Shown here one piece after another: positions 17,671-32,500 of a stretch of 64,000 nucleotides of DNA. Each line of letters opens with the position of its first letter. The first letter of the stretch is position 1. Source of the stretch: Elusimicrobiota bacterium (GTDB lineage Bacteria; Elusimicrobiota; UBA8919); NCBI GenBank assembly GCA_041658185.1, contig JBBAAR010000001.1, positions 122,400 to 186,399 of the forward strand. The letters are read 5' to 3'. Under the pieces are notes generated by a model. It searched no databases. It was not told the origin of the DNA and was given only the letters and a program-made list of their open reading frames with translations. The translations under genes were made by a program, and so were the position numbers.

Positions 17671-19256
17671 TTTATCTTTCCCGTTAACAAAAATCTTTTT
17701 GTGTAATCGTCAACCGTCTCCAGATTTATGCGGGGATAATCCACATCCTCTGCGACATGAAAATGCCTGTCTTCAAGGGTGTTTCTTCTCATAAAATACT
17801 GGGCTGAAATATCCCAATCAATAATCCAAATCTTAAAACCCGCACCGCCGGAAACAGCCACCGTCTGGGAACCCTTTCTTGAATAATCCGGAAGATACGC
17901 AATCCCGTACCTGAAAATAAAATCCCTTCTTACCTTATGACGGGCGCCGGCCTGCCAGGACAATGTATCTGCCCACCCGAGGTTTGTCCAGACGCCGCCG
18001 GTAGCTTTCACCCGGGCTGCAGACCACTTTGTGTGAATAAAATCAAATGAAAATGTCGGCTCACTGACACCCGGAAATTTGAAGGTCAACCCGTAAGATA
18101 TCGCCGAAGGATATTCGTATTGATATTTGATATTTGTTAAAGTTGCCGCACCTGATATATTGTTTTCCAAGTTTGTTTTTAACTTATCCTCAATCTCTTT
18201 TTCCGGACGATACGAAACGCCTATTTTAGTTCTCGGGGTTACTTCATATGATGCTCCGATAAGATACAGCGAACCGCTTATTGAATGAGTCGTCGTTGTT
18301 GATATGTCCGCGATTATTTGTCCCCTGTTTGAAAGGAGTGTCCCGTAGTCAATCTCCTCAATTTTGCCCTCCGGCTCACCGTATAAATTCCATAATGATA
18401 TGCCTATTGCAAGAGGTTCAACCGGATAATAATTCAACCCTCCGCCGATTGCATAAATCAACCCCCGGGATGTAATTTTATTTGTTTCGGTGCGCTGGGT
18501 TGACGAGTAATTGTTCTCCTCATAAAAATAGTTGAAATCGCTTAGTTCCGTTTCACACACTGCAACCGAAAGTTTGTTTTTTATTACCGGCTGGGAAATC
18601 CCGATACCTGAAAACCGGCCGAAAGAATTCTTGTTCGGCACGGTGGTACCGGCAGAATCATTTCTAACTTTTCTTCCATAAATTGAAAGAAGACCGCCGG
18701 ATAAAACAAACTGTCCGTTGTCAACGGAAATAGTCGCCGGATTTATAAAGACAGATGCCGGCTCATCATTAACAGAAACAGCAGTGCCGCCGGCCGCCGC
18801 AGATGCCGCCGTAAAACCTACCGCATTATCGCCTAACTGTAAAAACGACCCGCGATAGGTGTAGGAGTAAAGAAAGGTTAAAGGTATAAGGTTTAAGGTT
18901 AAAATTAAAATAAGAGCAGAGCGGATTTTTTTGACGGTAGATGTAAAAATACTTATCAGTTCATCTGTTTCTGCAAACAAGTTTTTTACATCTTCTTTTT
19001 GAACTAATCCAGCACCAAGTAATAATCTTAACCAATATCTTGTTTCATTTGCTTCTTTGCGTGAAATGTTTATACTATGAGAAAAATCCTTTCTTGTTAA
19101 TCCGGAATACGCTTCTTCAATATTCGCTCCGACTGATGTACCTGAGCGAAGTATTTGGTCACCCAAAGTTTTGGCTATCTGGTTTTGGGGTAATTTCTGC
19201 ACCAGTTTTATTATTTGTAAAGCGAATTTATAAGTCCGTTCTTTTAAATTCTGCAT
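17664..19256 (-). CDS. in-frame fusion ORF: N-terminal four-helix-bundle protein (23S rRNA IVS protein family) + FadL/PorV-like OM beta-barrel
   Basis: Residues 1-113 (ERTYKFALQII...SGTSVGANIEEAYSG...RKEANETRYWLRLL) match the TIGR02436/PF05635 four-helix-bundle family. The ORF then continues without a stop into a repeat-B-encoded signal peptide (SALILILTLNLIPLTFLYS) and a barrel with NPATI and a C-terminal ...GKIKW. Confidence 0.55.
   Translation of the reverse strand: MQNLKERTYKFALQIIKLVQKLPQNQIAKTLGDQILRSGTSVGANIEEAYSGLTRKDFSHSINISRKEANETRYWLRLLLGAGLVQKEDVKNLFAETDELISIFTSTVKKIRSALILILTLNLIPLTFLYSYTYRGSFLQLGDNAVGFTAASAAAGGTAVSVNDEPASVFINPATISVDNGQFVLSGGLLSIYGRKVRNDSAGTTVPNKNSFGRFSGIGISQPVIKNKLSVAVCETELSDFNYFYEENNYSSTQRTETNKITSRGLIYAIGGGLNYYPVEPLAIGISLWNLYGEPEGKIEEIDYGTLLSNRGQIIADISTTTTHSISGSLYLIGASYEVTPRTKIGVSYRPEKEIEDKLKTNLENNISGAATLTNIKYQYEYPSAISYGLTFKFPGVSEPTFSFDFIHTKWSAARVKATGGVWTNLGWADTLSWQAGARHKVRRDFIFRYGIAYLPDYSRKGSQTVAVSGGAGFKIWIIDWDISAQYFMRRNTLEDRHFHVAEDVDYPRINLETVDDYTKRFLLTGKIKW
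18872..18912. repeat. repeat family B forward arm
   Basis: aaggttaaaggtataaggtttaaggttaaaattaaaataag. Confidence 0.6.
18915..19256 (-). other. four-helix-bundle (IVS-protein family) module nested between the two arms of a family B repeat
   Basis: Occupies exactly the space between the inverted arm (19258-19305) and the forward arm (18872-18912). Confidence 0.6.
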
Positions 19257-20605: not shown

Positions 20606-22681
20606 CTACCATTTATAATCCACCCTTACTTCCCACTTATTGCCGTAGCCCGGGTCAACCGTATTATAATACTCGTCGTTGAAAAACTCATCCGCCGACC
20701 ACTTGTATTTATCTGTGAACCTCATTTTTATCTTAGCGTATCTTGAAAGTTTGTCGGTTACCTGAAGCCAGAACTGACGGGACTCCTTCCCGCTTTTTCT
20801 TAAATCACTATCGGCAAACTTTAACTCGCCTGCAATTTCAAGGTTTCCTGTTATATCATATGTGGTGCGGGTAGTCACTTCATCCTTTGGAAGATATAAA
20901 GTCGGGGTACCGGCATAATCTTCTATGTATTTGTATTTTATAAGCAAATCGCTTACTTTTGAAGGTCTGAATTTCAACTGGAAATTAGTGGTCACCGTCA
21001 TTTTTTCCGAATACTCCACATTTTTGTAGATGTCCTTGTCTTTCCATTTCCTATCGATTTGAATATTCACTCCCCGTGGGAGTTTCCAATTGTATTTCAG
21101 GTAAATCTCCCTGTCAGTAGTGGGCGTTTCATAGATGGTATAATACAGACCGGTGACCGTATCCTTTTGGGTTTTTGCAATGTGGTTGAACTGGTCAACA
21201 TAAAATTTCAGTTTCATCGTCCGTGTTAGTTTTGAGTTAAACTCAATGTAATCGCCTTGCTCGTCGCGGTCACGGAACCTTGTTTTATCGGTATGTTTTG
21301 AATAACCCCGCGCCCACGGGTTGTAAAAATCAATATCGTAATCACGGCGAGAATAAATCATATCAATTTTGCCCATTTTTTTGAATGTTTTTATGTACCA
21401 GGCATTGCCCCAGCCGTGAACCTTTGCCATCTCGCCCGCTATATTAAAACCCTTGTAACCGGTTACGAAATTAGTTCCATAGACGGCAAACGATTGTTCC
21501 GGCGGCCAGCGCCAAATTTGTATGTCCGTATCGGAAAATGTTGCCTCTCTTTTTGAAGTGTAGACCGTGCCGCCGATATAAGTCGCATCAATATTAGGTG
21601 TGGCATCCGCTAATTTATATGTCAAATTACTTCCCACAAGCGTTTCCTCATAGACATCTTCAAGCGTGACATAATGAAGCGCACCGTCATCCATTTTAAC
21701 ATATGTCTTGAACGCATAACCGCCTTTTGAATAAAACTCCGTCAAATCAAACCGGCCCTGCTTCATCCGTGCGCCGAAGCCCTTTAATTGCTGTTGGGTT
21801 GAACCCAGCGTATATTTGTCTTGTAAGACGATATTACCTCCGGACAAACTGTAAATACTTGTCTGCGTCTCTTTTGAATATGTATCGTCGGGATAAAGTC
21901 CCTGGGGCGATGATTTTCCGGACGTATCAAATACAAGCCGCTGTCCGAAGCCCGCCCGGAAATTGCCGAGATACGCCTGCTCTATAACGGGTCCCTTTTC
22001 ATAGCCGATGTATGATTTGTTGAGACGATAACCGTGTTCAAACTCGCCGCCGGTAATGTCCCTTGTGTAATAATAATTGACGTACCTGACGTCGCCTTCT
22101 ATAATTGCCCCGAAATTCATATATCTTCCGAACTTCAATAGCCGCAGGCGGAACAAGTCATATGTCCTCGGATAGTCGGTCGTTGCCATTTCCACTTCCA
22201 AGTTTGATTTGGTCCTGAACACGATATCCCCTTTTGTTTTTATTTTTTCCGGCTGCTCGGCGGCAATAAAAATTTTTATATTTTCGTAAGCCACGTCGTC
22301 TATAATCTCCGGGTTGATTAAATCCTTTATATCTTTGTAATAGCCGTGTTTTAGACGGTAATTTACTATTTTTGAGGCATCCGGAGCGGTTAAACCTGGT
22401 AACGACTGCAGCTGGAAAACATCGGCAGTATTTATGTCAATTTTGTCGTCATAGATAGCTAAAAGATTCTCATATGTTTCATACTCAATATCTCCGTCCT
22501 GATACGCCTGTTCAATATCCGAGTCGCTTTCCCACTGGGAAGTATCGTCGGGATCATCCTCGGCGGAATGGAGAAAGGTTAAAGGTTTAAATAAAAGGTA
22601 TAAATTAAAGGTATAAATTAAAAGAAGGGAAAAAATTTTAAATCTTGGCGCCGTTTTTTTATTGTTATTTTTTTCGTCCAT
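20606..22681 (-). CDS. large OM beta-barrel protein with N-terminal (periplasmic) ComEA-type helix-hairpin-helix DNA-binding domain
   Basis: After the signal peptide, DINTADVFQLQSLPGLTAPDASKIVNYRLKHGYYKDIKDLINPEIIDD is a ComEA HhH repeat (approx. 22276-22440). About 550 beta-rich residues follow, ending ...VRVDYKW. Confidence 0.6.
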   Translation of the reverse strand: MDEKNNNKKTAPRFKIFSLLLIYTFNLYLLFKPLTFLHSAEDDPDDTSQWESDSDIEQAYQDGDIEYETYENLLAIYDDKIDINTADVFQLQSLPGLTAPDASKIVNYRLKHGYYKDIKDLINPEIIDDVAYENIKIFIAAEQPEKIKTKGDIVFRTKSNLEVEMATTDYPRTYDLFRLRLLKFGRYMNFGAIIEGDVRYVNYYYTRDITGGEFEHGYRLNKSYIGYEKGPVIEQAYLGNFRAGFGQRLVFDTSGKSSPQGLYPDDTYSKETQTSIYSLSGGNIVLQDKYTLGSTQQQLKGFGARMKQGRFDLTEFYSKGGYAFKTYVKMDDGALHYVTLEDVYEETLVGSNLTYKLADATPNIDATYIGGTVYTSKREATFSDTDIQIWRWPPEQSFAVYGTNFVTGYKGFNIAGEMAKVHGWGNAWYIKTFKKMGKIDMIYSRRDYDIDFYNPWARGYSKHTDKTRFRDRDEQGDYIEFNSKLTRTMKLKFYVDQFNHIAKTQKDTVTGLYYTIYETPTTDREIYLKYNWKLPRGVNIQIDRKWKDKDIYKNVEYSEKMTVTTNFQLKFRPSKVSDLLIKYKYIEDYAGTPTLYLPKDEVTTRTTYDITGNLEIAGELKFADSDLRKSGKESRQFWLQVTDKLSRYAKIKMRFTDKYKWSADEFFNDEYYNTVDPGYGNKWEVRVDYKW

Positions 22682-22715
22682 ATTTTAACCTTTAATTTAT
22701 ACCTTTAACCTTATT
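22574..22715. repeat. repeat family B copy
   Basis: aaaggttaaaggtttaaataaaaggtataaattaaaggtataaatt...tattttaacctttaatttatacctttaacctt. Confidence 0.65.
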
Positions 22716-24330
22716 TTATCTCTATATTATCCTTTACTTCATCAATTATATCCGCAGATATGCCCGGAACTTTTTTCAAATCATCTACCGCCGGCATCGG
22801 GCCGTTTTTCTTAATATATCTTAAGATATTTTGTGATTGCACAGTCGTAAATCCCAAATCCCGCAGTTGAGACATATCCGCTTTGTTGATGTTTATCTTC
22901 CCTGACGGAATCGATTCCTCCGGCGCCGGTGCCGGTTCAACTTTCGGTTTCGTTGCCGGAGTAGGTAGAACTTTAGGAGCAGGGGGGACAACCTTTGGCA
23001 CAACCGGGGGCGGTGTCACTTCCGACTTCCCGCCCGCCGCAGGTGCTTCCGGCTCTTCCGCATCCGGCTGGGGCTCTTCATTTTCATCTGAAACGGTCGG
23101 TTTAGCAGGAACTGGTTTTTCACTTTCTTCCACTTTTTCTTCACTTTTTTTCACCGGTTCTTCCTTCTGCCTCTCCTCCACCGTTATCAGTCCTTCAATT
23201 TTTGAATAAACCCTTCTTGACATCCTCGGAACATTTAATATATCCTCAATTGAGTTGAATTGCCCTTTTTCACCGCGGTAATCAACAACCCGTTTTGCCA
23301 TCACTTTGCCCATACCCGGAAGTTCCGCTATCTCATCCGAGGATGCAGTATTTATATTGACTTTTCCGGCAGGACGAACCGCTTCCTCCGTCACCTGTCC
23401 CTCGGCCTTCCGCCCGTCTACCCTCTTCCTGGTTGTCCTTGCCGCCTTTTTCGTCTTCGGAGCATATTTAATGGTCGCCTCTTGCTCGCCGCCCCATTTC
23501 ATAGAAAGTGAAACTACATGCATTGCATCAAGCGTGGCGTGGGAAGAATAGCCGTAATCAAAATAAACCGTTTTATAATTTGTTCCGAAACCAAGAGCAT
23601 ATTTTGAAGGATTTGTCTGAAGACCCGTGCGAAACACGAAAAAATCGGTGAGACGGAATTCCGTTCCGATGTGGACGGCGACCGGTTCGTCTATTATTTT
23701 CTCAAAATCCATCGCAAAATTCAATCCCGGAAGAGGTCTGTAAAAAATCCCGGTTAAAAATTCTTCCGTCAGATTTTCATTCCCTTTTGATATCTCCGGC
23801 TCGTTTATGTTTTTGGCGGAAACACCGAGGGCAAAGTCCCCTGAAACCCTTGCCAGAACGCCCAAATCCAGCCCGAATGCGGAATCACTGCCATATTCCT
23901 TGATTTTTATACCCATTGATTTCAAGTTATATCCGAACATTATTCCTTCCGCCAGCCCGAAGCCGTGAGAAAAAATTAAAACGCTTTCTTTGTATTCGGA
24001 GGGACCGAAATCTGAATATAAAAAACCGATGTCGCCGTAGCCCTGAACGGGAAATGCGAATTTTACATTGGTATAACCCAGCCCTTCAACGCCATAAATA
24101 TTCGTATATGTTGAGGCGAACTGGAACGCGGGTATCAGACGCAATCCCGCCGGGTTATAGTCAATAGCGTTGGTGTCGTTGGAAAAACCTACGAAAGCCC
24201 CGCCCATCCCGATAGGTCTTGCCGAGGCGGGTTTTTGCTCAAAAGCAGGGTAGAGCGGAGAGCATAGAGCATAGAGCATAGTAAAAAAGAGCATAGAGCA
24301 TAGAGCGTAGAAAGATTTTTTTGAAAACAT
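22711..24330 (-). CDS. FadL/PorV-like OM beta-barrel fused to two C-terminal ComEA-type HhH domains separated by a Pro/Lys-rich spacer
   Basis: N-terminal PASARPIGMGGAFVGFSNDTNAIDYNPAGL barrel motif. HhH-1 is VNINTASSDEIAELPGMGKVMAKRVVDYRGEKGQFNSIEDILNVP (approx. 23178-23358). A PVK/E-rich linker of about 90 aa follows (approx. 22905-23177). HhH-2 is ININKADMSQLRDLGFTT...LKKVPGISADIIDEV (approx. 22714-22903). Confidence 0.7.
   Translation of the reverse strand: MFSKKSFYALCSMLFFTMLYALCSPLYPAFEQKPASARPIGMGGAFVGFSNDTNAIDYNPAGLRLIPAFQFASTYTNIYGVEGLGYTNVKFAFPVQGYGDIGFLYSDFGPSEYKESVLIFSHGFGLAEGIMFGYNLKSMGIKIKEYGSDSAFGLDLGVLARVSGDFALGVSAKNINEPEISKGNENLTEEFLTGIFYRPLPGLNFAMDFEKIIDEPVAVHIGTEFRLTDFFVFRTGLQTNPSKYALGFGTNYKTVYFDYGYSSHATLDAMHVVSLSMKWGGEQEATIKYAPKTKKAARTTRKRVDGRKAEGQVTEEAVRPAGKVNINTASSDEIAELPGMGKVMAKRVVDYRGEKGQFNSIEDILNVPRMSRRVYSKIEGLITVEERQKEEPVKKSEEKVEESEKPVPAKPTVSDENEEPQPDAEEPEAPAAGGKSEVTPPPVVPKVVPPAPKVLPTPATKPKVEPAPAPEESIPSGKININKADMSQLRDLGFTTVQSQNILRYIKKNGPMPAVDDLKKVPGISADIIDEVKDNIEIK
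24251..24312. repeat. repeat family C forward arm
   Basis: agagcggagagcatagagcatagagcatag...agagcatagagcatagagcgtag; encodes the YALCSMLFFTMLYALCS signal peptide. Confidence 0.65.
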
Positions 24331-24331
24331 T

Positions 24332-24700
24332 TTAATTCTCCTTCAACTTTTTCGTCATTGAATTTATCAGTCCGTTTAACATCTTGGAAATTTCTTCAAG
24401 TTCTTCATATAATTTTCTAAATTCTTGGTGTTCTAAATACTTTTGACCTAATGCTACTTCAAGCAACGGAACACATTCATATGCAGAACCTTTCGCTATT
24501 CTCAAAAACTGGATATATTCTTTTCTGGAATATCTACCATTACCCTCAGCAATATTTGCGGCAATAGAAACAGATGCTCTCCGAAGTTGGTCGGTTAATC
24601 CGAAACATTCTTTTTTAGGAAAATTTGCAGACACTTTATAAATCTCATTTGCAAAGCTCATAGATTTTTTATATACCGTCAAATTTTCAAAATCAAACAT
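24332..24700 (-). CDS. four-helix-bundle protein, 23S rRNA intervening-sequence protein family (TIGR02436-like)
   Basis: FGLTDQLRRASVSIAANIAEGNGRYSRKEYIQFLRIAKGSAYE matches the family signature. Start preferred at the ATG at 24700 (MFDFENL). The stop codon lies 1 nt from the start codon of the following barrel gene. The gene is nested between family C repeat arms. Confidence 0.7.
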   Translation of the reverse strand: MFDFENLTVYKKSMSFANEIYKVSANFPKKECFGLTDQLRRASVSIAANIAEGNGRYSRKEYIQFLRIAKGSAYECVPLLEVALGQKYLEHQEFRKLYEELEEISKMLNGLINSMTKKLKEN

Positions 24701-24702
24701 AT

Positions 24703-24730
24703 CTACGCTCTGTCCTCTACGCTCTCTGCC
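24703..24730. repeat. repeat family C inverted arm
   Basis: ctacgctctgtcctctacgctctctgcc. Confidence 0.55.
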
Positions 24731-24731
24731 C

Positions 24732-27056
24732 TTACATTTTTCTTCCCACCACAATTCTTTTTGAGGATGTTTTTGCGGCGCCGGTTGTTTTATCCAAGGA
24801 CTCAATGTTGACTATGTAGATACCGGTTCTGACTATGTTGCCGTCATCGTCTTTGCCGTCCCAAGTGACGGTAGCGGCTGCGCCGCCGCCGTCGGAATGG
24901 TCAAGAAGTATCCTAACCTGATGCCCGGAAACATCAAAAACCCTCATCGTTATTTGGCTGTTCGCGGGGACAAGATATGCTATTTTTGCCTGACTGTAAG
25001 TTCCGTCTTTATAAGGTGAAAACGGCGACTGGAAGACCTCCATCGTCTTTGTCGTAGTAATCAGCGTTCCGCCGTAATCGCCGTAGCCGGGAGTTGTTGA
25101 ACTTTCCGACCAGTCGGCTTTTGTATCTGTGTCCATCGGTGCGAGTGTGGCTGTGGTAGCAAGACGGTACATTGATTTTGAAGTTGAACCGCTCCACGCA
25201 AAAGAACCGGCGATATATCCTGCCTCATCCGTTGCCTCCGGCGACCACTTGCCCGCCGTAAAAGCGGCATCATATGCCGCCGTAGCTCCGGTATAACTCG
25301 TATCGCTGTTGGCAAAACTCATAAAATCAACAATCGTATCATCGGCATTTTTTAGCGAGATGTTGTTGTCCGTTCCGGTTAAACCCGGGGACGTCTCGTC
25401 CGAGAATAAATCAATATAGCCGCTGGCGTTTTCGTCGGCAGCCGTTTCGTCGCGGGTCTCACCTCTGATACCTGTCGCGCTATTTCCCTTGGATGCCCAT
25501 AGAACTATAAACTTATCTTTTGCGATAGTTCCCATATCGCCGGGGAATGTCTTAATTAAAGTCGTGCCCTCGTATATTTTTACGCTGCTGACATCAGCAG
25601 AGGCGGCAGTAACAAAAATCTCAATAAAATCACCGCCTGAAATTCCGGGCGCAACTTCAGTAATTTTTCCGGTTATAGAACCTGTTCCGCCGGAGGCGGT
25701 AGCGCTGGAAACAAGCCTTCCCAGATTTCTGTCAGCATACCCCAACCAGTCGGATTTTGCATTTGTTGTATCAACCGGAACGCCGTACTCGCTGGTTCTG
25801 CGATTAAGCGTTATTTTGGTGTCCATTAAACCCGCGGTATTGTCCACGGAATTTACCTCGTGTTCCGACACTGAAGTAGCCGCAGGCACCCACTGATTTA
25901 AAACGACCGCCGCATCATACTCTACGTCATAATCAAACTGACCGTCAACTTTGGCAAAAGGGACAAAATCAATCATTGTGCCGGCGGCATTTTTGAGAGT
26001 TAATGTATTCTCGGTAGCGACAATTGTTATGGCGGAAAAAAAGTCCCATTGCCTGTTTCCAAATGCGTTGATGATTGGAACAGCAGCGTTTGTGCCTGAC
26101 TTAAAATGTGCAATTATGTAATCCCCGGAACTTACTGCCACTGACGGAAAAGTGAAAGTCCCTGAATTTGAAACCGCAATCGCGCAACCGCCGATATTTG
26201 CGGTTGATTCAATAACATAAAGTTCCACCGCATCATAGTCACCGCTACTTGACTGGCCCGCATCTATTTCGGTTATAACCGCTTTTATTGAACCGGTACC
26301 GCCGCCGGCGCCGCCGGTATTTACGGCTCCGGGAGAAGTTGACGGTTGAATAGACCAGTCGGATTTTGCCGTTCCGGTATCGTCAGTATCCGTTGAACTT
26401 GAGTCCCTACCAAATGATTTTCCGACAGCGATACTGCCTGAAGCTACACAATCCGCTTGGCCGCTTCCCGTCCATTGAAATTCGGCGACGGCATTATTTA
26501 ACGCTGTGTTGTTGGCGGTTGTCCAAGTCGCATCCTGGTTGGCAAAAGCCATTGCATCTATCGCATCCGGCGTATTGGCGGCATTTCTTAATGTTAAAAC
26601 AGCATCCGTATTAACCAAACTGGGATCTGCCGTATAAAAATCCCAGACATTGTTTGCACCTTTGCCGGAAATGTCATCTTCGCTATTGCTGGTGCCTTTG
26701 ACGCCAAAATGAAGAAGGATATAATCGCCGACACCCGCCGTAGTAAATAAATTAGGAAATGTTTTATTGGCAACGGTTGCCCCCGTACCAGCTACCACCC
26801 AGGTACTTCCCTGAATTATAGCGGAACCTTCCTGCAACACAAGATTTGAATAATTGCCTGCAACGGCGACATAAAACTCTATCCATTCGGCGCCGGCTGC
26901 TTCGGCCGGTGCGACCTCGTTTATCATTATCGGTGATGCGGAAAAAACGAATCCGCAAATGCCGAGAAATAAGGATAAAGTTAAGATAAAAAATCTCTGC
27001 CCGCCAGAGGCGGATTTCGCCCCACAGGGACTTCCGTTGGTCGCTTTTTTCAGCAT
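24732..27056 (-). CDS. secreted surface protein with three lamin-tail-domain (LTD) repeats and T9SS-type C-terminal sorting domain
   Basis: LTD signatures MINEVAPAEAAGAEWIEFYV, ITEIDAGQSSSGDYDAVELYV and ITEVAPGISGGDFIEIFV. C-terminus ...GIYIVNIESLDKTTGAAKTSSKRIVVGRKM is T9SS-CTD-like. Confidence 0.6.
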   Translation of the reverse strand: MLKKATNGSPCGAKSASGGQRFFILTLSLFLGICGFVFSASPIMINEVAPAEAAGAEWIEFYVAVAGNYSNLVLQEGSAIIQGSTWVVAGTGATVANKTFPNLFTTAGVGDYILLHFGVKGTSNSEDDISGKGANNVWDFYTADPSLVNTDAVLTLRNAANTPDAIDAMAFANQDATWTTANNTALNNAVAEFQWTGSGQADCVASGSIAVGKSFGRDSSSTDTDDTGTAKSDWSIQPSTSPGAVNTGGAGGGTGSIKAVITEIDAGQSSSGDYDAVELYVIESTANIGGCAIAVSNSGTFTFPSVAVSSGDYIIAHFKSGTNAAVPIINAFGNRQWDFFSAITIVATENTLTLKNAAGTMIDFVPFAKVDGQFDYDVEYDAAVVLNQWVPAATSVSEHEVNSVDNTAGLMDTKITLNRRTSEYGVPVDTTNAKSDWLGYADRNLGRLVSSATASGGTGSITGKITEVAPGISGGDFIEIFVTAASADVSSVKIYEGTTLIKTFPGDMGTIAKDKFIVLWASKGNSATGIRGETRDETAADENASGYIDLFSDETSPGLTGTDNNISLKNADDTIVDFMSFANSDTSYTGATAAYDAAFTAGKWSPEATDEAGYIAGSFAWSGSTSKSMYRLATTATLAPMDTDTKADWSESSTTPGYGDYGGTLITTTKTMEVFQSPFSPYKDGTYSQAKIAYLVPANSQITMRVFDVSGHQVRILLDHSDGGGAAATVTWDGKDDDGNIVRTGIYIVNIESLDKTTGAAKTSSKRIVVGRKM

Positions 27057-27173
27057 TTCACCCTCCGAAAACTCTATATATTAAAAAGCAAGTTAAAAGT
27101 CAAAAATCAAAAGCAAAAAACAGTGCATATTTTTCACCTTCAATTTTTAACCTTTAACTTTGAACCTTCTATT

Positions 27174-27791
27174 CTATTCTTCTTCCGATGACTCGCTTGC
27201 GGATGTTTTGTATTTATCCATAAGCGCTTTTTCCACGGCGTCTTTCAGTTTTTTATTTGTGATTAAAATCTGTTTTACCCATTTGCCGCCGCCTTCGGGT
27301 TTTCTTGAAGGCCACGAAATCCAGGGACCTTTTCCGCTTTCCATCAATTTGCATTCAATCCGGACGGCATTATTGAAATCAACCGCAGCAAAAACTTTTA
27401 ACGCTGATGCACGGGTAAATCTTGAATATTTTGATATTTTGTATGAAATTTGTTTTGACGCTTTTGCCGACGGTTTTCCTGATTCAACCGCCTTTTCTAT
27501 CTCGTCCTTCGCCTGTTTCGTAAGCGTCTCAAACTGCGGATATTCTTTGCCTGCTTTTGAAACATATGTCGGATATTTAAGAGAGATGCGACCGCCGACC
27601 TTAATCACCTGAATCTCTTTTACCTTGATGCAGTCGTTGAGAACAATCGTTGCCATTTCCTTTACCGCACCGCCGTCCTCTACCGGCGCCTTTTCAACGC
27701 TGGTTACATAAATTTCGTCAGCCGCAAAAACCGGAACTGCAAACGAAACCGCTAAAAGACAACCCAACAATAAACCAAAAACTTTACGCAT
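27174..27791 (-). CDS. secreted protein with two tandem SpoVG-like domains
   Basis: Signal peptide MRKVFGLLLGCLLAVSFAVPVFA. Both repeats match the SpoVG pattern (repeat 1 IVLNDCIKVKEIQVIKVGGRISLKYPTYVSKAGKEYPQF; repeat 2 AVDFNNAVRIECKLMESGKGPWISWPSRKPEGGGKW). Confidence 0.5.
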   Translation of the reverse strand: MRKVFGLLLGCLLAVSFAVPVFAADEIYVTSVEKAPVEDGGAVKEMATIVLNDCIKVKEIQVIKVGGRISLKYPTYVSKAGKEYPQFETLTKQAKDEIEKAVESGKPSAKASKQISYKISKYSRFTRASALKVFAAVDFNNAVRIECKLMESGKGPWISWPSRKPEGGGKWVKQILITNKKLKDAVEKALMDKYKTSASESSEEE

Positions 27792-27807
27792 TTTTGCCTC
27801 CCCTTAA

Positions 27808-27892
27808 CACCAGCGAATTAGAGAATTAGAGAATTAGAGAATTAGTCAAGCAATATCTAATTCTCTGTCGTTTAAACTAATTCTCTTTCGTA
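27808..27892. repeat. repeat family D copy
   Basis: aacaccagcgaattagagaattagagaattagagaattag...aattctctgtcgtttaaactaattctctttcg. Confidence 0.65.
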
Positions 27893-27896
27893 TAAA

Positions 27897-29447
27897 CTAT
27901 TTTACAACCAACTTCCCTTTTATCTGATTCAATCTTGCAGCAGTAATTCCCTGTACTTCCAATAAATCCTCAACCTTCTCAAATCTTCGGTTTTTTCTGT
28001 AATTGACAATGCTCCTCGCCTGAATCCAGCTGAACCCTGCATCGTGAAGAACATCAACATTCGCAGTATTTATGTCCGTTAGGGACGAGCGGAGAGCAGG
28101 GAGCGGAGTTTCTGTCTTCTGTCCTCTATCCTCTATCCTCTGTCCTTTCATTTTCTGTTTCGCCTGTTCAATCTTATTTTTTGATTCTTTATGGTTCGGG
28201 TCAATTTTCAAAACCTCTTCCCATCCGGCAATCGCAAGTTCGTATTCGCCATTCTGGTAGTGTTTGAACGCGGCATCGTAACGCTGTTTTTTAAACTCCG
28301 ATTTTTCCTGCTCGGTTAATTCTTTCGGTTTTTTCTCTTCCGTAACCGCCGGGGGCTTACTTGTAACTGCCGGCGGACGAACGGGAGAAGGCATCGCCGG
28401 AATAATCATCCCCTCATCTTTTGCCTTTTGCTCTTTCCTCTCTAACTTCTTTTTATCTTTTTTCGGCATTGAATACCTGAATGTCAGAGACAGCCGGTGG
28501 CTTCCTGATGTATCCGCCAATTGCAGCGGGAGCAAAAACGCATAGTCAAGTTGCAACCCGGACTCTTTGAACATTTTATTATACGAAAAACCAAGCGAGA
28601 GTTCCCTGTCGTTTCCGCCGAAACGGGCAGCCCAGGTATTGTAATTAAACCATGTCTCAACACCGCCGGAAATTTTCATATCGGCATCGTTATCGGCAGG
28701 TTTTCTGTAAGAGACATCAACCGTAGGGGTGATATTTTCAAAAAACTTCCAGTCGCCGATGCGATAGGCAGTTCCGAATTTTACAATCATCGGGACTTTA
28801 TCCTCGGTTTTAAGTCCTACATCCGGTTGTAAAATATTTAACGCCGAAAGTCCGAATGAAAAATCGGACGGTTTCAATAAAAATCCTATGTCCGGAGTAA
28901 ATCCGCCCGCGGATGTTTTGTCAAACACCGGGTCGGCGATATTTTTTGTTCTGTCATCAAGCGTATAAGAATGCGTAAGATATTTCAAGTTAAGACCGGC
29001 CATAAACGGAAATCTTATGCCGAGAGAGGAAGCAATATCGCATGAATAACTTGCCGAAATCGTGTTCTCCCTGTAAAATCCCCATAGTGCAAAATCGGTT
29101 ATTGTAAATCCAAAAGCCCCTATTTCCGTCGGATAAACTCCGGCTGCAAACATCTGGGAGAGATTTACATCATCAATTCCCATAAAAAGTTTGTTGTACA
29201 TAAATGTCGTTTCCAGCATTTCAAGTTGAGCAATTCCCGCGGGATTCCAAAGCGTTGCCGCCGGCTCGTTGGCAATAGCGGTAAATGCGTTGCCCATTCC
29301 GCCCGCACGGGTCCCCCAGCCGGTATCCTGGAAAGCGGCAAAAGACAGTGAACAAAAGTGAACAAAAGTGAACAAAAGTGAACAAAAATAAATGCTTTTT
29401 TTCACTTTATTCCAATTATTTTTTCTCTGGTTTAATATTTTAATCAT
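27897..29447 (-). CDS. FadL/PorV-like OM beta-barrel + TPR-like segment + C-terminal ComEA-type HhH domain
   Basis: N-terminal TRAGGMGNAFTAIANEPAATLWNPAGI barrel motif, a TPR-like stretch (YDAAFKHYQNGEYELAIAGWEEVLKIDPNHK), and a C-terminal DINTANVDVLHDAGFSWIQARSIVNYRKNRRFEKVEDLLEVQGI ComEA HhH. A family C repeat lies inside the coding region at 28084-28150. Confidence 0.65.
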   Translation of the reverse strand: MIKILNQRKNNWNKVKKSIYFCSLLFTFVHFCSLSFAAFQDTGWGTRAGGMGNAFTAIANEPAATLWNPAGIAQLEMLETTFMYNKLFMGIDDVNLSQMFAAGVYPTEIGAFGFTITDFALWGFYRENTISASYSCDIASSLGIRFPFMAGLNLKYLTHSYTLDDRTKNIADPVFDKTSAGGFTPDIGFLLKPSDFSFGLSALNILQPDVGLKTEDKVPMIVKFGTAYRIGDWKFFENITPTVDVSYRKPADNDADMKISGGVETWFNYNTWAARFGGNDRELSLGFSYNKMFKESGLQLDYAFLLPLQLADTSGSHRLSLTFRYSMPKKDKKKLERKEQKAKDEGMIIPAMPSPVRPPAVTSKPPAVTEEKKPKELTEQEKSEFKKQRYDAAFKHYQNGEYELAIAGWEEVLKIDPNHKESKNKIEQAKQKMKGQRIEDRGQKTETPLPALRSSLTDINTANVDVLHDAGFSWIQARSIVNYRKNRRFEKVEDLLEVQGITAARLNQIKGKLVVK

Positions 29448-29510
29448 TGTTTCTTAACTTCCTTTCACTTTCTTCCACTTTCCTTCACTTCCTTTCACTG
29501 TCCCATCACT
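29345..29510. repeat. repeat family A copy (arms about 60 bp apart)
   Basis: gtgaacaaaagtgaacaaaagtgaacaaaagtgaacaaaaataaatgc ... cctttcactttcttccactttccttcacttcctttcactg. Confidence 0.7.
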
Positions 29511-32500
29511 TAGCCAACACCACTGCGCCGGTGCGCTTTTCGCCGCTTACCGCTTCAACTTTATAAATATAAACGCCGGATTCCAGGACATTGCCGTCGT
29601 CGTCTTTACCGTCCCAGTCAAGATATGCCTGGTTATTTCCGTCAACAGTTCTAATCTTTTTACCGGTAACATCGTAAATTTCAATTTTAACTATATTGCT
29701 GTCGCATATAAAATGAGCTATATCGTTTTTACCGTCAACGGTAGCGGGAGTAACGAATTTCTCGGATGCCGTAGGTTTAACGGGTATTGCACCCTTCGGG
29801 AAAACCGCGAAAAGTGTGAAGTGGTCCACATAGCCGGAAACGGTATTTTTCACGGTATCAACAGTTCCGCCGATATAACGCCACTCCCAGTTATCCCAAT
29901 AGTATATGCGTAAATTCGTCTCCAAAATGCCGGGACGGTCGTCAATTTCACCGTCGCTGTTCTGGTCAAGGTATCTTATCGTTAAAATTATCGGTTTTTT
30001 GAAATGTGTGTTGTCGGGTGTGAAATCAAAGCAAACAATGGGCGCAGTGCTGACCGATGCAATAGTGGAAGTGTTTTCATTTTTGAAAGCCGAGGGGGGA
30101 GGCGTTAAATCACCGGGGTAACCCTCCTGTAAAATCGCTATAGGAACATTTGTTGCAAGCGCACCGGCTGGAATTGTAACGGACGTTTCACCGTCCGTCT
30201 GGTCGCCGTCGGAAACCGTCAGAGTACCTCCGCCGGCTGTCAGTGTTATAACTGCCGTCTGAGTTTTTACATCAACCGTCGGGGCGGTCGCAGCAGTTTT
30301 TGTATCTCCGTTAATAACAATATACCCGTAGTTTGATGCGACATCCTTTGCCTCAATATAGTATTTGAAATCAACCAGAAACGCCGCACCAATAGGACCT
30401 ATTTTGAAAGTGTAAAGGTCGCCGATGTTGGTCGCCGTTGAGACCTCTATCCAACTGCCGCCGGTCAACTGGTAATAAAGTTTTGCGGATGTAACCGGTT
30501 GAATTGAACCGTTATTATCGGTATCAGTAATGGTAGCGACAAAAATCGCATAGCCGCCTAAAACATTAATTTCTGTTACCAGCGTGTGCGTAACGGTCGG
30601 CGGAACGGTATCGGGATTGGCAACTTTTTCGTTTGAATAAATTGACTCAACACCGTCGGTATCGCGAGTTGTGAGCACATAGTAATATGCTTTCTGAGTG
30701 CGGGGTGAAACAATCGGGTCGGTATAACTCGTTCCCGTAGAAGTTGAACCGGCAAGCGTGTAAGGGCCGCCGGAAACGATTGAATAATAAATTCTGTATG
30801 ACGAGAAATTGCTTGCCGTAAAGTCCGGCGAATGCGTCCAGACAAGATTGATATTACTTCCCGCATAATTCGCCGAAACAAGAACCGGCGGCGCAATAAA
30901 CGGTGCGGTTGAGACGGCAGAGGAATACCCGCTTTCAAGTGCGATTGAATAAAGTCCGTTCAACTGGTCCCCTTTATCAACCGCTACTATTCTGAAATAA
31001 TATGTCACGCCGTTTGTTAAACTTGTTATGTGAAGCGGATTAGAAGAACTGTATAGTGCGGGATAATTTGTTGTAGAACATAACACAACATTACCGTCAA
31101 ATTTTGTAGCAAAAGTGAATGTCGCTCTGTAGACCCAGTATTTTTCTATATCATCATTGCCGGGTTTAAGTGTTGAATTTGTCCACCAGATATTAACGGC
31201 GGTATTTGATGAAACAACAGTCACTGCGGTCGGTTCATTCGGTGCCACATCATATGCGGCGGCATAAGAAAGCGTATTTACAAAAGTTCCCGTTGACCAA
31301 CCCGCCCAGTTGCTGGCAACTTCATCCCTGTATTTCAGCGCAAAATAATATGATGTTCCGGGGTTAAGCCCTGTTACAATAGTAGAATACGGCTCCCGGG
31401 TTACAGTATTTGTTGACACATCAGGACGTATTGTTGCATTACTAAAATCCGTGTCATTTCCTATCGGATTTGTAGAGTACGCCACCCGGTATTCGCCGCC
31501 GGAAACGTTGCCGACTGTTCCGTCGTCGCCGGGAGCCGTCCATCTCAAGTTGACCTCGCCGTCATTTGTTCCGGTTAAAGCAGTCAAGTCGGAAATGTTA
31601 TTCGGCGGTACGGTCTGGACATATGCATATGCGGAGGTGTTTTGTGTAAAAGGTGCATCGGCGGTTGACTTCCACACAGACCAGTTTGTAGAAATTTCAT
31701 CCCGCGCCTTTATCGCAAAATGATAGAGCACATTGTTTCCTAAAAGCCCTGTTACTACTCTTGAACAAGCCGTTAAAGGCAATAGCGAAGAAGTTGATAT
31801 CACGATAGTATTTGCAGCAGACACTGAGCCATAATTTGAATTGCTTATAATATCTGTTGATGAATATTTTATTTCAAATGCCGCATTGTTAAGCGTCCCC
31901 ACAGTTCCGTCATCGCCGGGCGATGTCCACTGCAAAATTATCTGCCCGTCATCGCTCCCGGTTAAAGCGGTCAAATCGGAAATATTATCGGGCGTAACGT
32001 TCACAACGGTTGCATATGCGGAAGTGTTGACGGTTAAATCATTTGCTGATGAAGTCCACACGGACCAGTTTGTAGAAATTTCATCCCTCGTCTTTATCGC
32101 AAAATAATACAGAACGTTGTTACCTAATAAATTATATATGGTAGTTGTACAGGCAGTTAATGGCTGAAGTGAGGTCGTTGTAATCGTAACGGTATAACTC
32201 GGTGCCGGCGGAGAATCGTAATTGGAACTATTTATAATACCTGTTGAAGAGTATTTTATCTCAAAAACGCCGGTAAGATTGCCGACCGTCCCGTCATCGC
32301 CGGGCGATGTCCACTGCAAAATTATCTGCCCGTCATCGCTCCCGGTTAAAGCGGTTAAATCAGAAATCCCGGCAGGCGGAAGGGTATCAGGCGGTTGTTC
32401 CGGCGCCGAAGAAGAGTTTTTGGCAAATCTATAAGTTGAATGAAAAGTGTAATCTGCGTCGTTATTATCAGAATCATAGCCGCATCCGTTTGGCGAATTG

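What the first reader, a model, noticed from the sequence alone, without database searches (positions are those of the whole stretch)
27174..27791. Secreted protein with two tandem SpoVG-like domains
Established knowledge: SpoVG is a cytoplasmic nucleic-acid-binding regulator. Here two SpoVG-like repeats (KVKEIQVIKVGGRISLKYPTYVSKAGKEYPQF and RIECKLMESGKGPWISWPSRKPEGGGKW) follow a classical cleavable signal peptide and end in an acidic SESSEEE tail. The gene sits between the LTD protein and a barrel-ComEA gene. An exported SpoVG-fold DNA or RNA binder would fit a periplasmic DNA-handling role.
Basis: partly seen in the sequence, partly recalled or inferred. Interest (0 to 1): 0.55.

Follow-up and report, generated by a model that had tools for sequence, protein, structure and literature searches.

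The report
Exported two-domain SpoVG protein, Elusimicrobiota
This gene encodes a version of the normally cytoplasmic DNA/RNA-binding regulator SpoVG that has been duplicated in tandem and given an export signal, and it belongs to an unstudied family, largely from Elusimicrobiota, that in many genomes sits among outer-membrane DNA-binding and DNA-uptake genes.

Summary

An N-terminal n/h/c signal peptide (MRK, hydrophobic core, VFA|AD) is kept in property, not sequence, across about 170 family representatives. SignalP could not be run.

New findings:
- The D1-D2 unit is a fixed architecture of a family of at least 174 clusters, named members mostly Elusimicrobiota.
- The mature core is strongly basic (family median pI 9.6).
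- D2 keeps the Lys/Arg doublet essential for DNA binding in canonical SpoVG; D1 has lost it.
- In Elusimicrobia-class genomes the gene lies in a conserved array: PorP/SprF-like barrel(-TPR-ComEA-type HHH), then SpoVG2, then an LTD surface protein, then barrel-HHH. ComEC and putative nucleases (PLD-family, metallo-beta-lactamase) lie in the same envelope block.
- In Endomicrobiia it lies among glmU-prs-ctc-pth...mfd, the classical spoVG neighbourhood, which suggests descent from canonical spoVG.

Best reading: a periplasmic nucleic-acid binder in eDNA capture or uptake. This is inferred, not shown. Novelty: a new variant of a known kind. I found no literature on it.

The parts
27174..27791 (-). 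Gene for the exported tandem SpoVG protein ('SpoVG2'), 205 aa plus stop codon.
   Evidence: ORF. Pfam SpoVG 51.4 bits with two stretches. Exact match to NCBI 'hypothetical protein WC947_00665 [Elusimicrobiota bacterium]'.
27797..27805 (-). Shine-Dalgarno sequence AAGGGGAGG, 5 nt upstream of the ATG.
   Evidence: Read directly from the sequence.
27723..27791 (-). Signal peptide, residues 1-23 (MRKVFGLLLGCLLAVSFAVPVFA). Predicted signal peptidase I cleavage after VFA.
   Evidence: The n/h/c features and the -3/-1 rule are met. The property is conserved across the family. Not run through SignalP.
27474..27716 (-). Domain D1, residues 26-106. A diverged SpoVG fold that is near neutral or acidic (pI 5.5 for residues 24-106). 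Y76-V77 replace the basic doublet.
   Evidence: Pfam stretch 29-102. Strand/helix pattern in the model. hhalign against D2. pI.
27453..27473 (-). Short Lys/Ser-rich linker, residues 107-113 (PSAKASK); it follows the conserved K106 at the end of D1 and contains the conserved S108.
   Evidence: Alignments A2 and A3.
27204..27452 (-). Domain D2, residues 114-196. A SpoVG fold closer to the canonical form and strongly basic (linker plus D2: pI 10.1, net +13).
   Evidence: The profile hit to PDB SpoVG covers residues 122-198. The NCBIfam stretch covers 124-202. pI.
27300..27305 (-). Codons for R163-K164 in WPSRK. They align with the MPSKR K50-R51 doublet of staphylococcal SpoVG, which is essential for DNA binding.
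   Evidence: Alignment to 2i9z and 2ia9. Mutagenesis in PMC3688583. Position 164 is basic in 87% of the family.
27177..27203 (-). Acidic C-terminal tail, residues 197-205 (SASESSEEE).
   Evidence: Sequence. Net -4. Low pLDDT at the end of the model. Many relatives end in an acidic run followed by W or Y.
27805..27886 (-). Intercistronic hairpin element built from 8-nt repeats (AGAGAATTAG x2, then CTAATTCT x4, then AATTCGCTGGTGTTA), directly 5' of the gene.
   Evidence: The same element lies directly upstream of ComEC (12870-12948) and of a small TM ORF (13283-13360).
27897..29447 (-). Upstream neighbour: a PorP/SprF-like outer-membrane barrel with a C-terminal TPR-like segment and a ComEA-type HHH_3 domain. 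This is the conserved syntenic partner.
   Evidence: Pfam. Synteny.
24732..27056 (-). Downstream neighbour: a lamin-tail-domain protein with a FlgD_ig-type C-terminal sorting domain. Also a conserved syntenic partner.
   Evidence: Pfam. Synteny.
22711..24330 (-). Context gene: an outer-membrane barrel fused to two HHH_3 (ComEA-type) domains.
   Evidence: Pfam HHH_3, 106.6 bits, two stretches. Conserved in L002, L005, L006, L007 and L009.
9979..12867 (-). Context gene: ComEC (DUF4131/OB domain, Competence channel, and a region similar to MBL), in the same strand block. It is preceded by the same repeat hairpin as SpoVG2.
   Evidence: Pfam. tblastn overlap with MBL. Repeat element.

Best explanation
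The gene encodes a Sec-exported, signal-peptidase-I-processed protein of about 20 kDa. It is made of two diverged SpoVG-fold domains (D1-D2). Elusimicrobiota are diderm (my own knowledge), so its default destination is the periplasm.

Shown:
- the SpoVG fold of the protein, with a sequence-profile match for each half;
- the internal duplication;
- the export-type N-terminus, conserved across the family;
- the strongly basic mature core;
- retention in D2 of the basic doublet and a Lys-rich helix;
- conserved synteny with a PorP/SprF-like barrel and an LTD protein, inside a block of envelope genes that carries three ComEA-type HHH proteins, PLD-family and MBL hydrolases (putative nucleases) and ComEC.

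Inferred:
- The covalently linked D1-D2 pair replaces the SpoVG homodimer with an asymmetric pseudo-dimer.
- Basic D2 binds nucleic acid without sequence specificity. D1 has been freed for another contact.
- The protein holds or hands over incoming extracellular DNA between the barrel-tethered HHH domains at the outer membrane and ComEC or nucleases at the inner membrane. This would serve transformation or nucleotide scavenging.
- The acidic tail may mask the basic surface or dock onto a partner, for example the TPR segment of the neighbouring barrel protein.

Evolution: the family probably arose from canonical spoVG by tandem duplication plus gain of a signal peptide, because Endomicrobiia still carry it in the glmU-prs-ctc-pth...mfd neighbourhood.

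The confidence given (0.45) is for the functional part, an envelope nucleic-acid binder in DNA capture or uptake. For 'exported tandem SpoVG-fold protein' alone I would say about 0.9.
For: Identity and fold:
- Pfam SpoVG above the gathering score, with two stretches.
- The family profile hits only SpoVG in the PDB.
- D1 against D2 by hhalign: 97.5%, E 5e-12.

Export:
- n/h/c layout and the VFA|AD motif.
- 133 of 170 representatives pass a strict heuristic. The rest are largely ORFs with truncated or mis-called N-termini, plus some lacking a net-positive n-region.
- A few of 165 members have a plausible lipobox in the presequence instead (11 matched a loose pattern, most of them weakly), which is also an export signal.
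- Nearly every gene from 9979 to 41430 has an export-type N-terminus.

Polyanion binding:
- Mature core pI is 9.6. Linker plus D2 has pI 10.1 and net charge +13. The family median core pI is 9.56, and 49 of 52 are above 8.
- WPSRK in D2 aligns with MPSKR of staphylococcal SpoVG. K50 and R51 there are each essential for DNA binding (PMC3688583).
- The D2 helix stretch NKKLKD aligns with the six-residue specificity stretch SDMRQE.
- Canonical SpoVG binds RNA, ssDNA and dsDNA (PMC11086051; PMC4959528).

Architecture: D1-D2 is fixed in 166 of 189 members, and 7 are D1-D2-D1-D2.

Context:
- Pfam annotation of the window genes.
- The order barrel, SpoVG2, LTD, barrel-HHH, HHH recurs in L002, L004, L005, L007, L008, L010, L018, L019 and L024-L031.
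- L019 has the order PorP, SpoVG2, PLD, PorV, MBL.
- The same repeat hairpin lies directly upstream of both SpoVG2 and ComEC.
- LTD domains occur in extracellular nucleases (PMC6085458; PMC8289736).

Ancestry: Endomicrobiia loci show glmU-prs-L25-pth-thrS-infC-SpoVG2-(ddl)-mfd.
Against: - There is no experimental or direct computational evidence of nucleic-acid binding.
- D1 lacks the basic doublet (Y76-V77) and is near neutral.
- In the wide family only position 164 is consistently basic. Position 163 varies.
- In Endomicrobiia the gene is in a housekeeping neighbourhood, so the protein's function cannot depend on the PorP/LTD cluster.
- The role of LTD domains in DNA handling is itself unsettled (PMC6085458).
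- A basic periplasmic protein could instead bind LPS, phospholipid or acidic protein partners.
- Signal-peptide cleavage rests on heuristics only.
Confidence: 0.45

Rival explanations
1. Envelope adaptor with no nucleic-acid role. The SpoVG fold has been recruited as a periplasmic partner of the PorP/SprF-like barrel and its neighbouring cargo proteins that carry C-terminal sorting domains. It could act as a plug, a chaperone or an anchor. Its basic surface would bind acidic lipids, LPS or acidic protein segments.
For: - The most constant neighbour in Elusimicrobia-class genomes is the PorP/SprF-like barrel immediately upstream.
- The window holds four 'sorting-domain cargo followed by barrel' gene pairs.
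- The barrel neighbour has a TPR segment that could bind the acidic tail.
- Many PorP neighbours in other loci match only the barrel part, with no HHH domain.
Against: - Endomicrobiia members lack any adjacent PorP or cargo genes.
- D2 retains the DNA-binding doublet and a Lys-rich helix.
- The cluster is enriched in DNA-related domains: HHH_3 in three proteins, PLD, MBL and ComEC.
Confidence: 0.22
2. Exported binder of another polyanion or of extracellular RNA. Candidates are polyphosphate, acidic polysaccharide, or RNA and nucleotides for scavenging. In this reading it has no role in DNA uptake.
For: - Canonical SpoVG binds RNA at least as well as DNA (PMC4959528; PMC11086051).
- The basic core is a general polyanion-binding feature.
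- Adenosine deaminase and a putative nucleoside-phosphorylase-like ORF (named from its N-terminal sequence only) nearby hint at nucleotide salvage.
Against: Nothing in the context points specifically to RNA. The HHH_3/ComEA domains and ComEC are dsDNA and ssDNA machinery.
Confidence: 0.15
3. Still a cytoplasmic, SpoVG-type regulator. The hydrophobic N-terminus would be an uncleaved membrane anchor with the domains facing the cytoplasm, or it would not be used at all. The protein would be simply the Elusimicrobiota orthologue of SpoVG.
For: - Endomicrobiia keep it in the classical spoVG neighbourhood.
- Databases name its relatives 'septation protein SpoVG family protein'.
Against: - A positively charged n-region followed by an acidic early mature region (ADEIYVTSVEKAPVEDGG) predicts N-in, C-out topology.
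- An AxA-type motif follows a helix-breaking Pro.
- Some members carry a lipobox.
- The window gene lies in a contiguous block of exported proteins.
- The NCBIfam SpoVG equivalog score is 34.9 against a cutoff of 108.
Confidence: 0.06
4. Artefact: a spurious ORF or a chance profile match.
For: None beyond the fact that each half alone scores about 1-2 bits below the Pfam gathering score.
Against: - 37 close homologs, and at least 174 cluster representatives with E <= 1e-10.
- A confident structure model with SpoVG as the only strong structural match.
- A strong ribosome-binding site.
Confidence: 0.01

Closest known systems
Canonical SpoVG (Pfam PF04026; B. subtilis, S. aureus/S. epidermidis, L. 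monocytogenes, B. burgdorferi; PDB 2ia9, 2i9z, 2i9x)
   Same: - The Pfam match is above the gathering score.
- D2 keeps the P-S-[KR]-[KR] doublet and the C-terminal helix.
- An acidic C-terminal tail is also present in the staphylococcal protein (visible in part; the remainder is from my own knowledge).
- In Endomicrobiia it occupies the classical spoVG neighbourhood (the B. subtilis gene order is from my own knowledge).
   Different: - It has two fused, diverged domains instead of a single domain of about 100 aa that forms homodimers or tetramers.
- It has a cleavable export signal, whereas canonical SpoVG is cytoplasmic.
- Its core is strongly basic (pI about 9.6). The canonical protein is acidic overall; I computed that from a sequence partly recalled from memory.
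- D1 has lost the DNA-binding doublet.
- It fails the NCBIfam equivalog cutoff (34.9 against 108).
- In this window it lies in an envelope gene cluster.
ComEA / ComE periplasmic DNA receptor (HHH_3, PF12836)
   Same: The proposed role is the same: a small exported, non-specific DNA binder acting upstream of ComEC. It is encoded among genes with HHH_3 domains and near ComEC.
   Different: There is no helix-hairpin-helix motif and no sequence or fold relationship. This is a functional analogy only, and it is untested.
Single-stranded DNA-binding protein SSB (acidic C-terminal tip)
   Same: It has a basic nucleic-acid-binding body followed by a flexible acidic tail. Many relatives end in an acidic run plus an aromatic residue (EEW, EEY, DDW), reminiscent of the SSB tip DDDIPF (my own knowledge).
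   Different: The fold is not an OB fold, the protein is exported, and the function of the tail is untested.
Multi-domain cytoplasmic SpoVG repeats (for example P0182, four canonical-like domains, no signal peptide)
   Same: The SpoVG domain is repeated in tandem.
   Different: P0182 has no signal peptide and all its repeats are of the D2 type. It is not the D1-D2 exported unit.

Membership tests
SpoVG family (Pfam PF04026) | Whole-protein score above the Pfam gathering cutoff. | tested here: met
   51.4 bits against 29.6, E 1.3e-13, two stretches. All 37 close homologs carry precomputed PF04026.
SpoVG family (Pfam PF04026) | SpoVG three-dimensional fold (beta-rich core with a C-terminal helix). 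| tested here: met
   [not shown]
SpoVG family (Pfam PF04026) | Conserved basic doublet (Sa K50-R51, Bb R53-R54) required for DNA binding. | tested here: inconclusive
   Met in D2 of this protein (R163-K164). Only position 164 is basic family-wide (87%). Not met in D1 (Y76-V77).
SpoVG family (Pfam PF04026) | Nucleic-acid binding. | not testable with these tools
   Needs EMSA or anisotropy with purified mature protein.
Canonical septation regulator SpoVG (NCBIfam NF009749 equivalog) | Score above the equivalog cutoff; a single domain of about 96 aa; cytoplasmic. | tested here: not met
   34.9 bits against a cutoff of 108. Two domains. Export signal. It should not be named a septation regulator.
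Sec signal peptide, signal peptidase I type | Positive n-region, hydrophobic h-region, small residues at -3 and -1, and a non-hydrophobic mature start. | tested here: met
   MRK (+2). Mean Kyte-Doolittle hydrophobicity 2.8 over 12 residues. V-F-A|A-D-E. Conserved as a property in 133 of 170 representatives. This is a heuristic only; SignalP was not available.
Bacterial lipoprotein (signal peptidase II) | A lipobox [LVI][ASTVI][GAS]C at the end of a full-length signal peptide, with the Cys conserved. | tested here: not met
   LLGC has its Cys at position 11, after only 7 hydrophobic residues, and 12 more hydrophobic residues follow it. The Cys is absent in many homologs. A few distant members do have a proper lipobox.
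ComEA-type DNA receptor | Helix-hairpin-helix HHH_3 domain. | tested here: not met
   There is no HHH hit in this protein. HHH_3 is present in three other proteins of the cluster.
T9SS-type cargo | C-terminal sorting domain (Por_Secre_tail, CHU_C or FlgD_ig-like). | tested here: not met
   No such hit in this protein. Neighbouring proteins have them. No route across the outer membrane is therefore indicated.

The most novel reading that the evidence does not exclude
SpoVG2 is the soluble periplasmic DNA-holding component of an undescribed Elusimicrobiota apparatus for capturing and importing extracellular DNA. That apparatus would be built from outer-membrane barrels fused to ComEA-type domains, LTD surface proteins, secreted nucleases and ComEC.

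In lineages such as Endomicrobiia, where published competence gene lists contain no comEA, SpoVG2 would be the functional replacement for ComEA. This would make an entire phylum's 'SpoVG' an envelope protein rather than a gene regulator. It would also show that the SpoVG fold can be moved from cytoplasmic regulation to periplasmic DNA handling.
Probability: 0.2. Interest if true: 0.75.

Novelty: new variant of a known kind. Interest (0 to 1): 0.55.

Why it matters
SpoVG is studied only as a cytoplasmic DNA/RNA-binding regulator of sporulation, virulence, biofilm and cell-envelope genes. Three consequences follow from this finding.

1. Annotation. The family, found mainly in Elusimicrobiota, carries a duplicated and exported form, and in Endomicrobiia it sits at the ancestral spoVG position. 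Pipelines currently name these proteins 'septation regulator SpoVG', which is probably wrong for them. Whether these genomes also keep a canonical SpoVG was not checked.

2. Protein evolution. It is a clean natural example of a homo-oligomeric nucleic-acid binder turned into an asymmetric single-chain pseudo-dimer. One half has been released from the ancestral binding constraint.

3. DNA uptake. Its conserved place among barrel-ComEA fusions, LTD proteins, putative nucleases and ComEC points to an uncharacterised envelope system for extracellular DNA in a poorly cultured phylum. Natural competence has been proposed in that phylum, but its outer-membrane and periplasmic steps are unknown. The hypothesis can be tested directly with one small soluble recombinant protein.

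Tried and rejected
- Single-sequence phmmer against the PDB found no SpoVG, only noise such as antibody chains and TTHA0132. The family profile was needed.
A2 was used instead, which limits the taxonomic census to fairly close relatives.
- The AFDB50 fold library was not available. UniProt-level taxonomy and two-domain structural neighbours could not be obtained.
- Literature searches gave nothing on an exported or tandem SpoVG. The searches were SpoVG + 'signal peptide', SpoVG + Elusimicrobia (zero papers) and SpoVG + periplasmic.
- A search for the spoVG/glmU/prs/pth/mfd gene order found no paper. That gene order therefore rests on my own knowledge of the B. subtilis genome.
- I tried to confirm the classical neighbourhood around the domain-1-only SpoVG matches (presumably canonical SpoVG; not examined) in the Aquificota loci L021 and L022 and the unnamed L023. 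None of those genes is present there.
- Lipoprotein reading of LLGC: rejected. The Cys comes too early and is not conserved.
- The antisense ORF 27160-27612 (+ strand, 150 aa, TTG start) was treated as spurious. It overlaps the conserved gene on the opposite strand, and it was not searched.
- No sigma-70-like promoter lies between the three genes. The only minus-strand terminator-like site lies inside the LTD ORF. Co-transcription is therefore plausible but unproven.
- Rfam has no match to the upstream hairpin. Its exact sequence is absent from the 29 other loci held at that point.
- The model's coordinates are not exposed. Pseudo-dimer packing and electrostatic surface could not be analysed.
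Full report
**1. The observation**

ORF 27174-27791 on the minus strand encodes 205 aa from an ATG. A strong Shine-Dalgarno sequence, AAGGGGAGG, lies 5 nt upstream of the ATG. The next Met is residue 46, inside the first conserved strand region, so the hydrophobic N-terminus is part of the protein.

- Pfam-A gives SpoVG (PF04026) at 51.4 bits against a gathering score of 29.6 (E 1.3e-13), with two matched stretches.
- The halves scanned alone give 28.6 and 27.7 bits (E 1.6e-6 and 2.9e-6).
- The NCBIfam equivalog for the canonical septation regulator is hit at only 34.9 bits against a cutoff of 108.
- The two halves are 24% identical (BLASTP E 6e-5).
- Profiles of the two halves built from 52 family members align with 97.5% probability, E 5e-12.

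**2. Fold**

An AlphaFold2 model built on 36 homologs has mean pLDDT 87.2 and pTM 0.80. Only the signal peptide and the last few residues are disordered. Each half shows the same pattern of strands followed by one long helix.

- Foldseek against the PDB returns SpoVG chains (2ia9, 2i9z, 2i9x) as the ten best hits, with probability 1.00 and TM on target 0.68-0.82. Everything after that is noise.
- A profile of the family hits only these three SpoVG sequences in the PDB. Single-sequence phmmer had missed them.

**3. Export signal**

The N-terminus is MRK (+2), then a hydrophobic core (mean Kyte-Doolittle 2.8 over 12 residues), then AVPVFA|ADE. This satisfies the -3/-1 rule and is followed by an acidic mature start.

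- Every N-complete close homolog has the same layout, although the sequence differs.
- Among 170 family representatives that start with Met and contain D1, 133 pass a strict heuristic: net positive n-region, an uncharged run of at least 10 residues, and a hydrophobic core of at least 2.0. The failures are largely ORFs with truncated or mis-called N-termini, plus some whose n-region lacks net positive charge; most still carry a hydrophobic segment.
- A few distant members carry a plausible lipobox in the presequence instead (a loose pattern matched 11 of 165, most of them weakly).
- Conservation of the property without the sequence is what a signal peptide looks like.
- LLGC at residues 8-11 of the window protein is not a credible lipobox. 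It is too early, more hydrophobic residues follow it, and the Cys is not conserved.
- SignalP could not be run, so cleavage remains a prediction.

**4. The family**

A word-indexed search found 37 proteins of 124-242 aa (all but one fragment 187-242 aa), all with PF04026. Every named one came from Elusimicrobiota MAGs. The window protein is identical to NCBI 'hypothetical protein WC947_00665 [Elusimicrobiota bacterium]'.

- An exhaustive profile search of 1.84 billion cluster representatives found 713 hits at E <= 1e-3, 174 at E <= 1e-10 and 79 at E <= 1e-30. Nearly all are 185-230 aa.
- Domain calling gives D1-D2 in 166 of 189 sequences and D1-D2-D1-D2 in 7. The rest are mostly fragments, plus one signal-less protein with four D2-type repeats. 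The D1-D2 pair is therefore an obligate unit.
- A scan of GTDB species genomes found 20 full-length loci. Eighteen were labelled Elusimicrobiota, Elusimicrobia or Endomicrobiia, one was an 'Ignavibacteria' MAG and one was unnamed.
- A four-domain relative is labelled Caldisericota.
- Sources name these proteins 'septation protein SpoVG family protein' or 'DNA-binding cell septation regulator SpoVG'.

**5. Features that bear on mechanism**

- The mature protein without its tail has pI 9.6 (net +12). D1 has pI 5.5. Linker plus D2 has pI 10.1 (net +13). Across 52 diverse members the median core pI is 9.56, and 49 are above 8.
- D2 'WISWPSRKPEGGGKWVKQ' aligns with 'FVAMPSKRTP-DGEFRDI' of the crystallised SpoVGs. 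R163-K164 therefore correspond to K50-R51 of S. aureus SpoVG. Each of those residues is individually essential for DNA binding without affecting oligomerisation (PMC3688583).
- The six-residue helix stretch that sets DNA specificity in S. aureus and Borrelia (SDMRQE / QDFRKA) corresponds to NKKLKD in D2. That stretch is Lys-rich, which suggests backbone contacts rather than base contacts.
- Family-wide, position 164 is basic in 87% of members and position 183 in 85%. Position 163 varies.
- In D1 the doublet is replaced by Y76-V77, and Y76 is nearly invariant.
- Canonical SpoVG binds RNA, ssDNA and dsDNA (PMC11086051; PMC4959528). It is a dimer in crystals and a tetramer in solution.
- The single-chain D1-D2 unit and the D1-D2-D1-D2 variants mirror those dimer and tetramer states. 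This is an inference. I could not superpose coordinates.
- About half of the members have a net-acidic tail, and many end in an acidic run plus W or Y.

**6. Context in the window**

The gene lies in a long minus-strand block (9979-41430) in which almost every product has an export-type N-terminus.

| Coordinates | Product |
|---|---|
| 9979-12867 | ComEC (DUF4131 + Competence) |
| 13359-14444 | UPF0164/OMP barrel |
| 14441-16333 | M6 peptidase with CHU_C/FlgD_ig tail |
| 17664-19256 | Toluene_X barrel |
| 20606-22681 | HHH_3 protein |
| 22711-24330 | Barrel with two HHH_3 domains |
| 24332-24805 | Small 23S_rRNA_IVP/bAvd-like ORF |
| 24732-27056 | LTD protein with FlgD_ig tail |
| 27174-27791 | SpoVG2 |
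| 27897-29447 | PorP/SprF barrel + HHH_3 |
| 29506-36378 | 2290-aa fn3/LTD/CHU_C protein |
| 36593-38496 | Two metallo-beta-lactamase-fold proteins |
| 38603-39532 | PorV-like barrel |
| 39650-39985 | ArsR |
| 39982-41430 | PLD-family protein with Por_Secre_tail |
| 43222-44256 | Adenosine deaminase |

- No sigma-70-like promoter and no convincing terminator separates the PorP-HHH, SpoVG2 and LTD genes.
- The C-terminal extensions of outer-membrane barrels are expected to be periplasmic (established OMP topology). The HHH_3 domains would then be ComEA-like DNA binders tethered to the outer membrane.

**7. Context elsewhere**

Three kinds of neighbourhood appear.

(A) Elusimicrobia-class loci repeat the window order: [giant cargo], then PorP-like barrel, then SpoVG2, then LTD protein, then barrel-HHH, then HHH.
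- L002, L004, L005, L007, L008, L010, L018 and L019 have the barrel upstream.
- L006 and L009 have the downstream part.
- L024-L031 confirm the order with precomputed Pfam annotation. This includes a PorP_SprF-TPR-HHH_3 architecture and two tandem SpoVG2 paralogs in L028.
- L019 reads PorP, SpoVG2, PLD, PorV, MBL.

(B) Endomicrobiia loci L011 and L013-L017 place the gene directly upstream of, or one gene from, mfd. In L013 and L016 it is downstream of glmU-prs-L25(ctc)-pth-thrS-infC. In B. subtilis the order is spoVG-gcaD(glmU)-prs-ctc-spoVC(pth)-...-mfd. That order is my own knowledge; a literature search for it found nothing. This suggests the exported tandem form arose in place from canonical spoVG.

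(C) L012 and L020 have two GGDEF genes followed by PilM/N/O downstream. L003 has a PilB-type ATPase two genes away.

**8. Interpretation**

Shown: an exported-type, tandem, basic SpoVG-fold protein family with a fixed D1-D2 unit and conserved synteny with envelope proteins that carry DNA-binding domains.

Inferred: it is periplasmic. It has no sorting domain for crossing the outer membrane, and Elusimicrobiota are diderm (my own knowledge). D2 binds nucleic acid non-specifically, and D1 and the tail mediate other contacts. It takes part in holding or passing extracellular DNA between the barrel-tethered HHH domains and ComEC or nucleases.

- LTD domains occur in extracellular nucleases such as ExeM and in DNA-degradation loci. 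Their role there is not settled (PMC6085458; PMC8289736).
- Competence genes are conserved and expressed in Endomicrobium. The published list is comEC, comEB, comF, comM, ssb, dprA and recA. comEA is not mentioned anywhere in that paper (PMC8809381). This leaves room for a non-ComEA periplasmic DNA binder.
- I put about 0.45 on the nucleic-acid-handling role and about 0.9 on 'exported tandem SpoVG-fold protein'.

**9. Rivals**

- An envelope adaptor for the PorP/cargo system with no nucleic-acid role. It is supported by the tight PorP adjacency and the TPR segment. It is weakened by the Endomicrobiia context and the retained doublet.
- A binder of RNA or another polyanion.
- A membrane-anchored but cytoplasm-facing regulator. 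Charge topology, AxA motifs and lipobox variants speak against it.
- An artefact. This is excluded.

**10. Comparison and novelty**

The protein is a member of the SpoVG domain family by sequence and fold. It is not the canonical septation regulator: it fails the equivalog cutoff, has two domains and is exported. It works perhaps like ComEA but is unrelated to it.

No paper in the searchable library mentions an exported, periplasmic or tandem SpoVG, or SpoVG in Elusimicrobia. I rate it a new variant of a known kind, with interest 0.55. It would be surprising to people who work on SpoVG, it is directly testable, and its function is so far supported only by inference.

**11. Seen in passing**

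A hairpin element built from 8-nt repeats lies directly upstream of three start codons: SpoVG2, ComEC and a small TM ORF. It consists of AGAGAATTAG copies, then CTAATTCT copies, then the invariant AATTC(T/G)CTGGTGTTA.
- AGAGAATTAG occurs 13 times against 0.1 expected. The terminal motif occurs 3 times against 0 expected.
- Fold z-scores are -1.7, -5.2 and -4.2.
- There is no Rfam match.
- Close relatives have a hairpin at the same position built from different repeats.

Noticed in passing
window 27805-27886, 12870-12948 and 13283-13360 (all minus strand): Three copies of a hairpin element made of 8-nt repeats: AGAGAATTAG x2-3, then CTAATTCT x3-4, then the invariant AATTC(T/G)CTGGTGTTA. Each lies 5-17 nt upstream of a start codon (SpoVG2, ComEC, and a small TM ORF between the barrel gene and ComEC). 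The core 10-mer occurs 13 times against 0.1 expected. RNA fold z-scores are -1.7, -5.2 and -4.2. There is no Rfam match. It could be a shared leader or operator that links SpoVG2 and ComEC, or a REP/MITE-like repeat.
   Followed up: partly
L031 4030-4110; L030 9885-9960: In close relatives (95% and 88% identical proteins) the same intergenic position upstream of SpoVG2 carries a hairpin built from different repeats: GGGTGTAG/CTACACCC in L031 and another sequence in L030. The structure and position are conserved, but the sequence is not.
   Followed up: partly
window 29506-36378 with 27897-29447; 24732-27056 with 22711-24330; 14441-16333 with 13359-14444; 39982-41430 with 38603-39532: Four gene pairs follow the pattern 'protein with a C-terminal sorting-type domain (CHU_C, FlgD_ig or Por_Secre_tail) followed by a PorP/PorV/UPF0164-like outer-membrane barrel'. 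This resembles the type-B-CTD cargo plus cognate PorP/SprF arrangement of Bacteroidota T9SS, but it occurs in an Elusimicrobiota genome.
   Followed up: partly
window 22711-24330, 27897-29447 and 20606-22681: Outer-membrane barrels are fused to ComEA-type HHH_3 domains, one of them through a TPR-like segment, and there is also a 691-aa HHH_3 protein. This architecture would tether dsDNA-binding domains to the outer membrane. I did not find it described in the literature I searched.
   Followed up: partly
window 24332-24805; N-terminus of 17664-19256; also L004, L026, L028 and L031: Small 23S_rRNA_IVP / bAvd-like four-helix-bundle ORFs are interspersed in the cluster. One runs in frame into a Toluene_X barrel ORF. 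They recur just upstream of the PorP-like barrel genes in L004, L028/L029 and L031, and again fused in frame to a Toluene_X barrel in L026. No reverse transcriptase was looked for.
   Followed up: no
L013 3690-10603; L016 2918-14829; L011, L014, L015 and L017: In Endomicrobiia the exported tandem gene lies in glmU-prs-L25-pth-thrS-infC-SpoVG2-(ddl)-mfd. This is the classical Firmicute spoVG neighbourhood and suggests the exported form replaced the canonical gene in place.
   Followed up: yes
L028 3507-4151 and 4306-4932 (P0028 and P0021); P0018 and P0035 both report a longest contig of 6436 bp: Two SpoVG2 paralogs are encoded side by side downstream of one PorP-TPR-HHH gene in L028. P0018 and P0035 probably share a contig too, which I did not check.
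   Followed up: partly
P0038, P0040, P0043, P0055, P0074, P0087 (370-397 aa); P0182 (388 aa): Seven representatives carry D1-D2-D1-D2 behind one signal peptide, which is a single-chain equivalent of a tetramer. P0182 is a signal-less protein with four canonical-like SpoVG repeats.
   Followed up: partly
window 27090-27173: The intergenic region between SpoVG2 and the LTD gene contains short tandem repeats: the 7-mer AAGTCAA x4.3 and the 14-mer ATTTTTAACCTTCA x3.2. Their function is unknown.
   Followed up: no
L012 1365-6924; L020 10590-13407; L003 11300-13108: In three loci SpoVG2 is followed by two GGDEF diguanylate cyclase genes and then PilM/N/O, or lies two genes from a PilB-type ATPase with a c-di-GMP-binding MshEN domain. 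This hints at a link with type IV pili.
   Followed up: partly
window 27160-27612 (+ strand): A 150-aa TTG-start ORF lies antisense to the SpoVG2 gene. I treated it as spurious because it overlaps the conserved gene; I did not search it.
   Followed up: no
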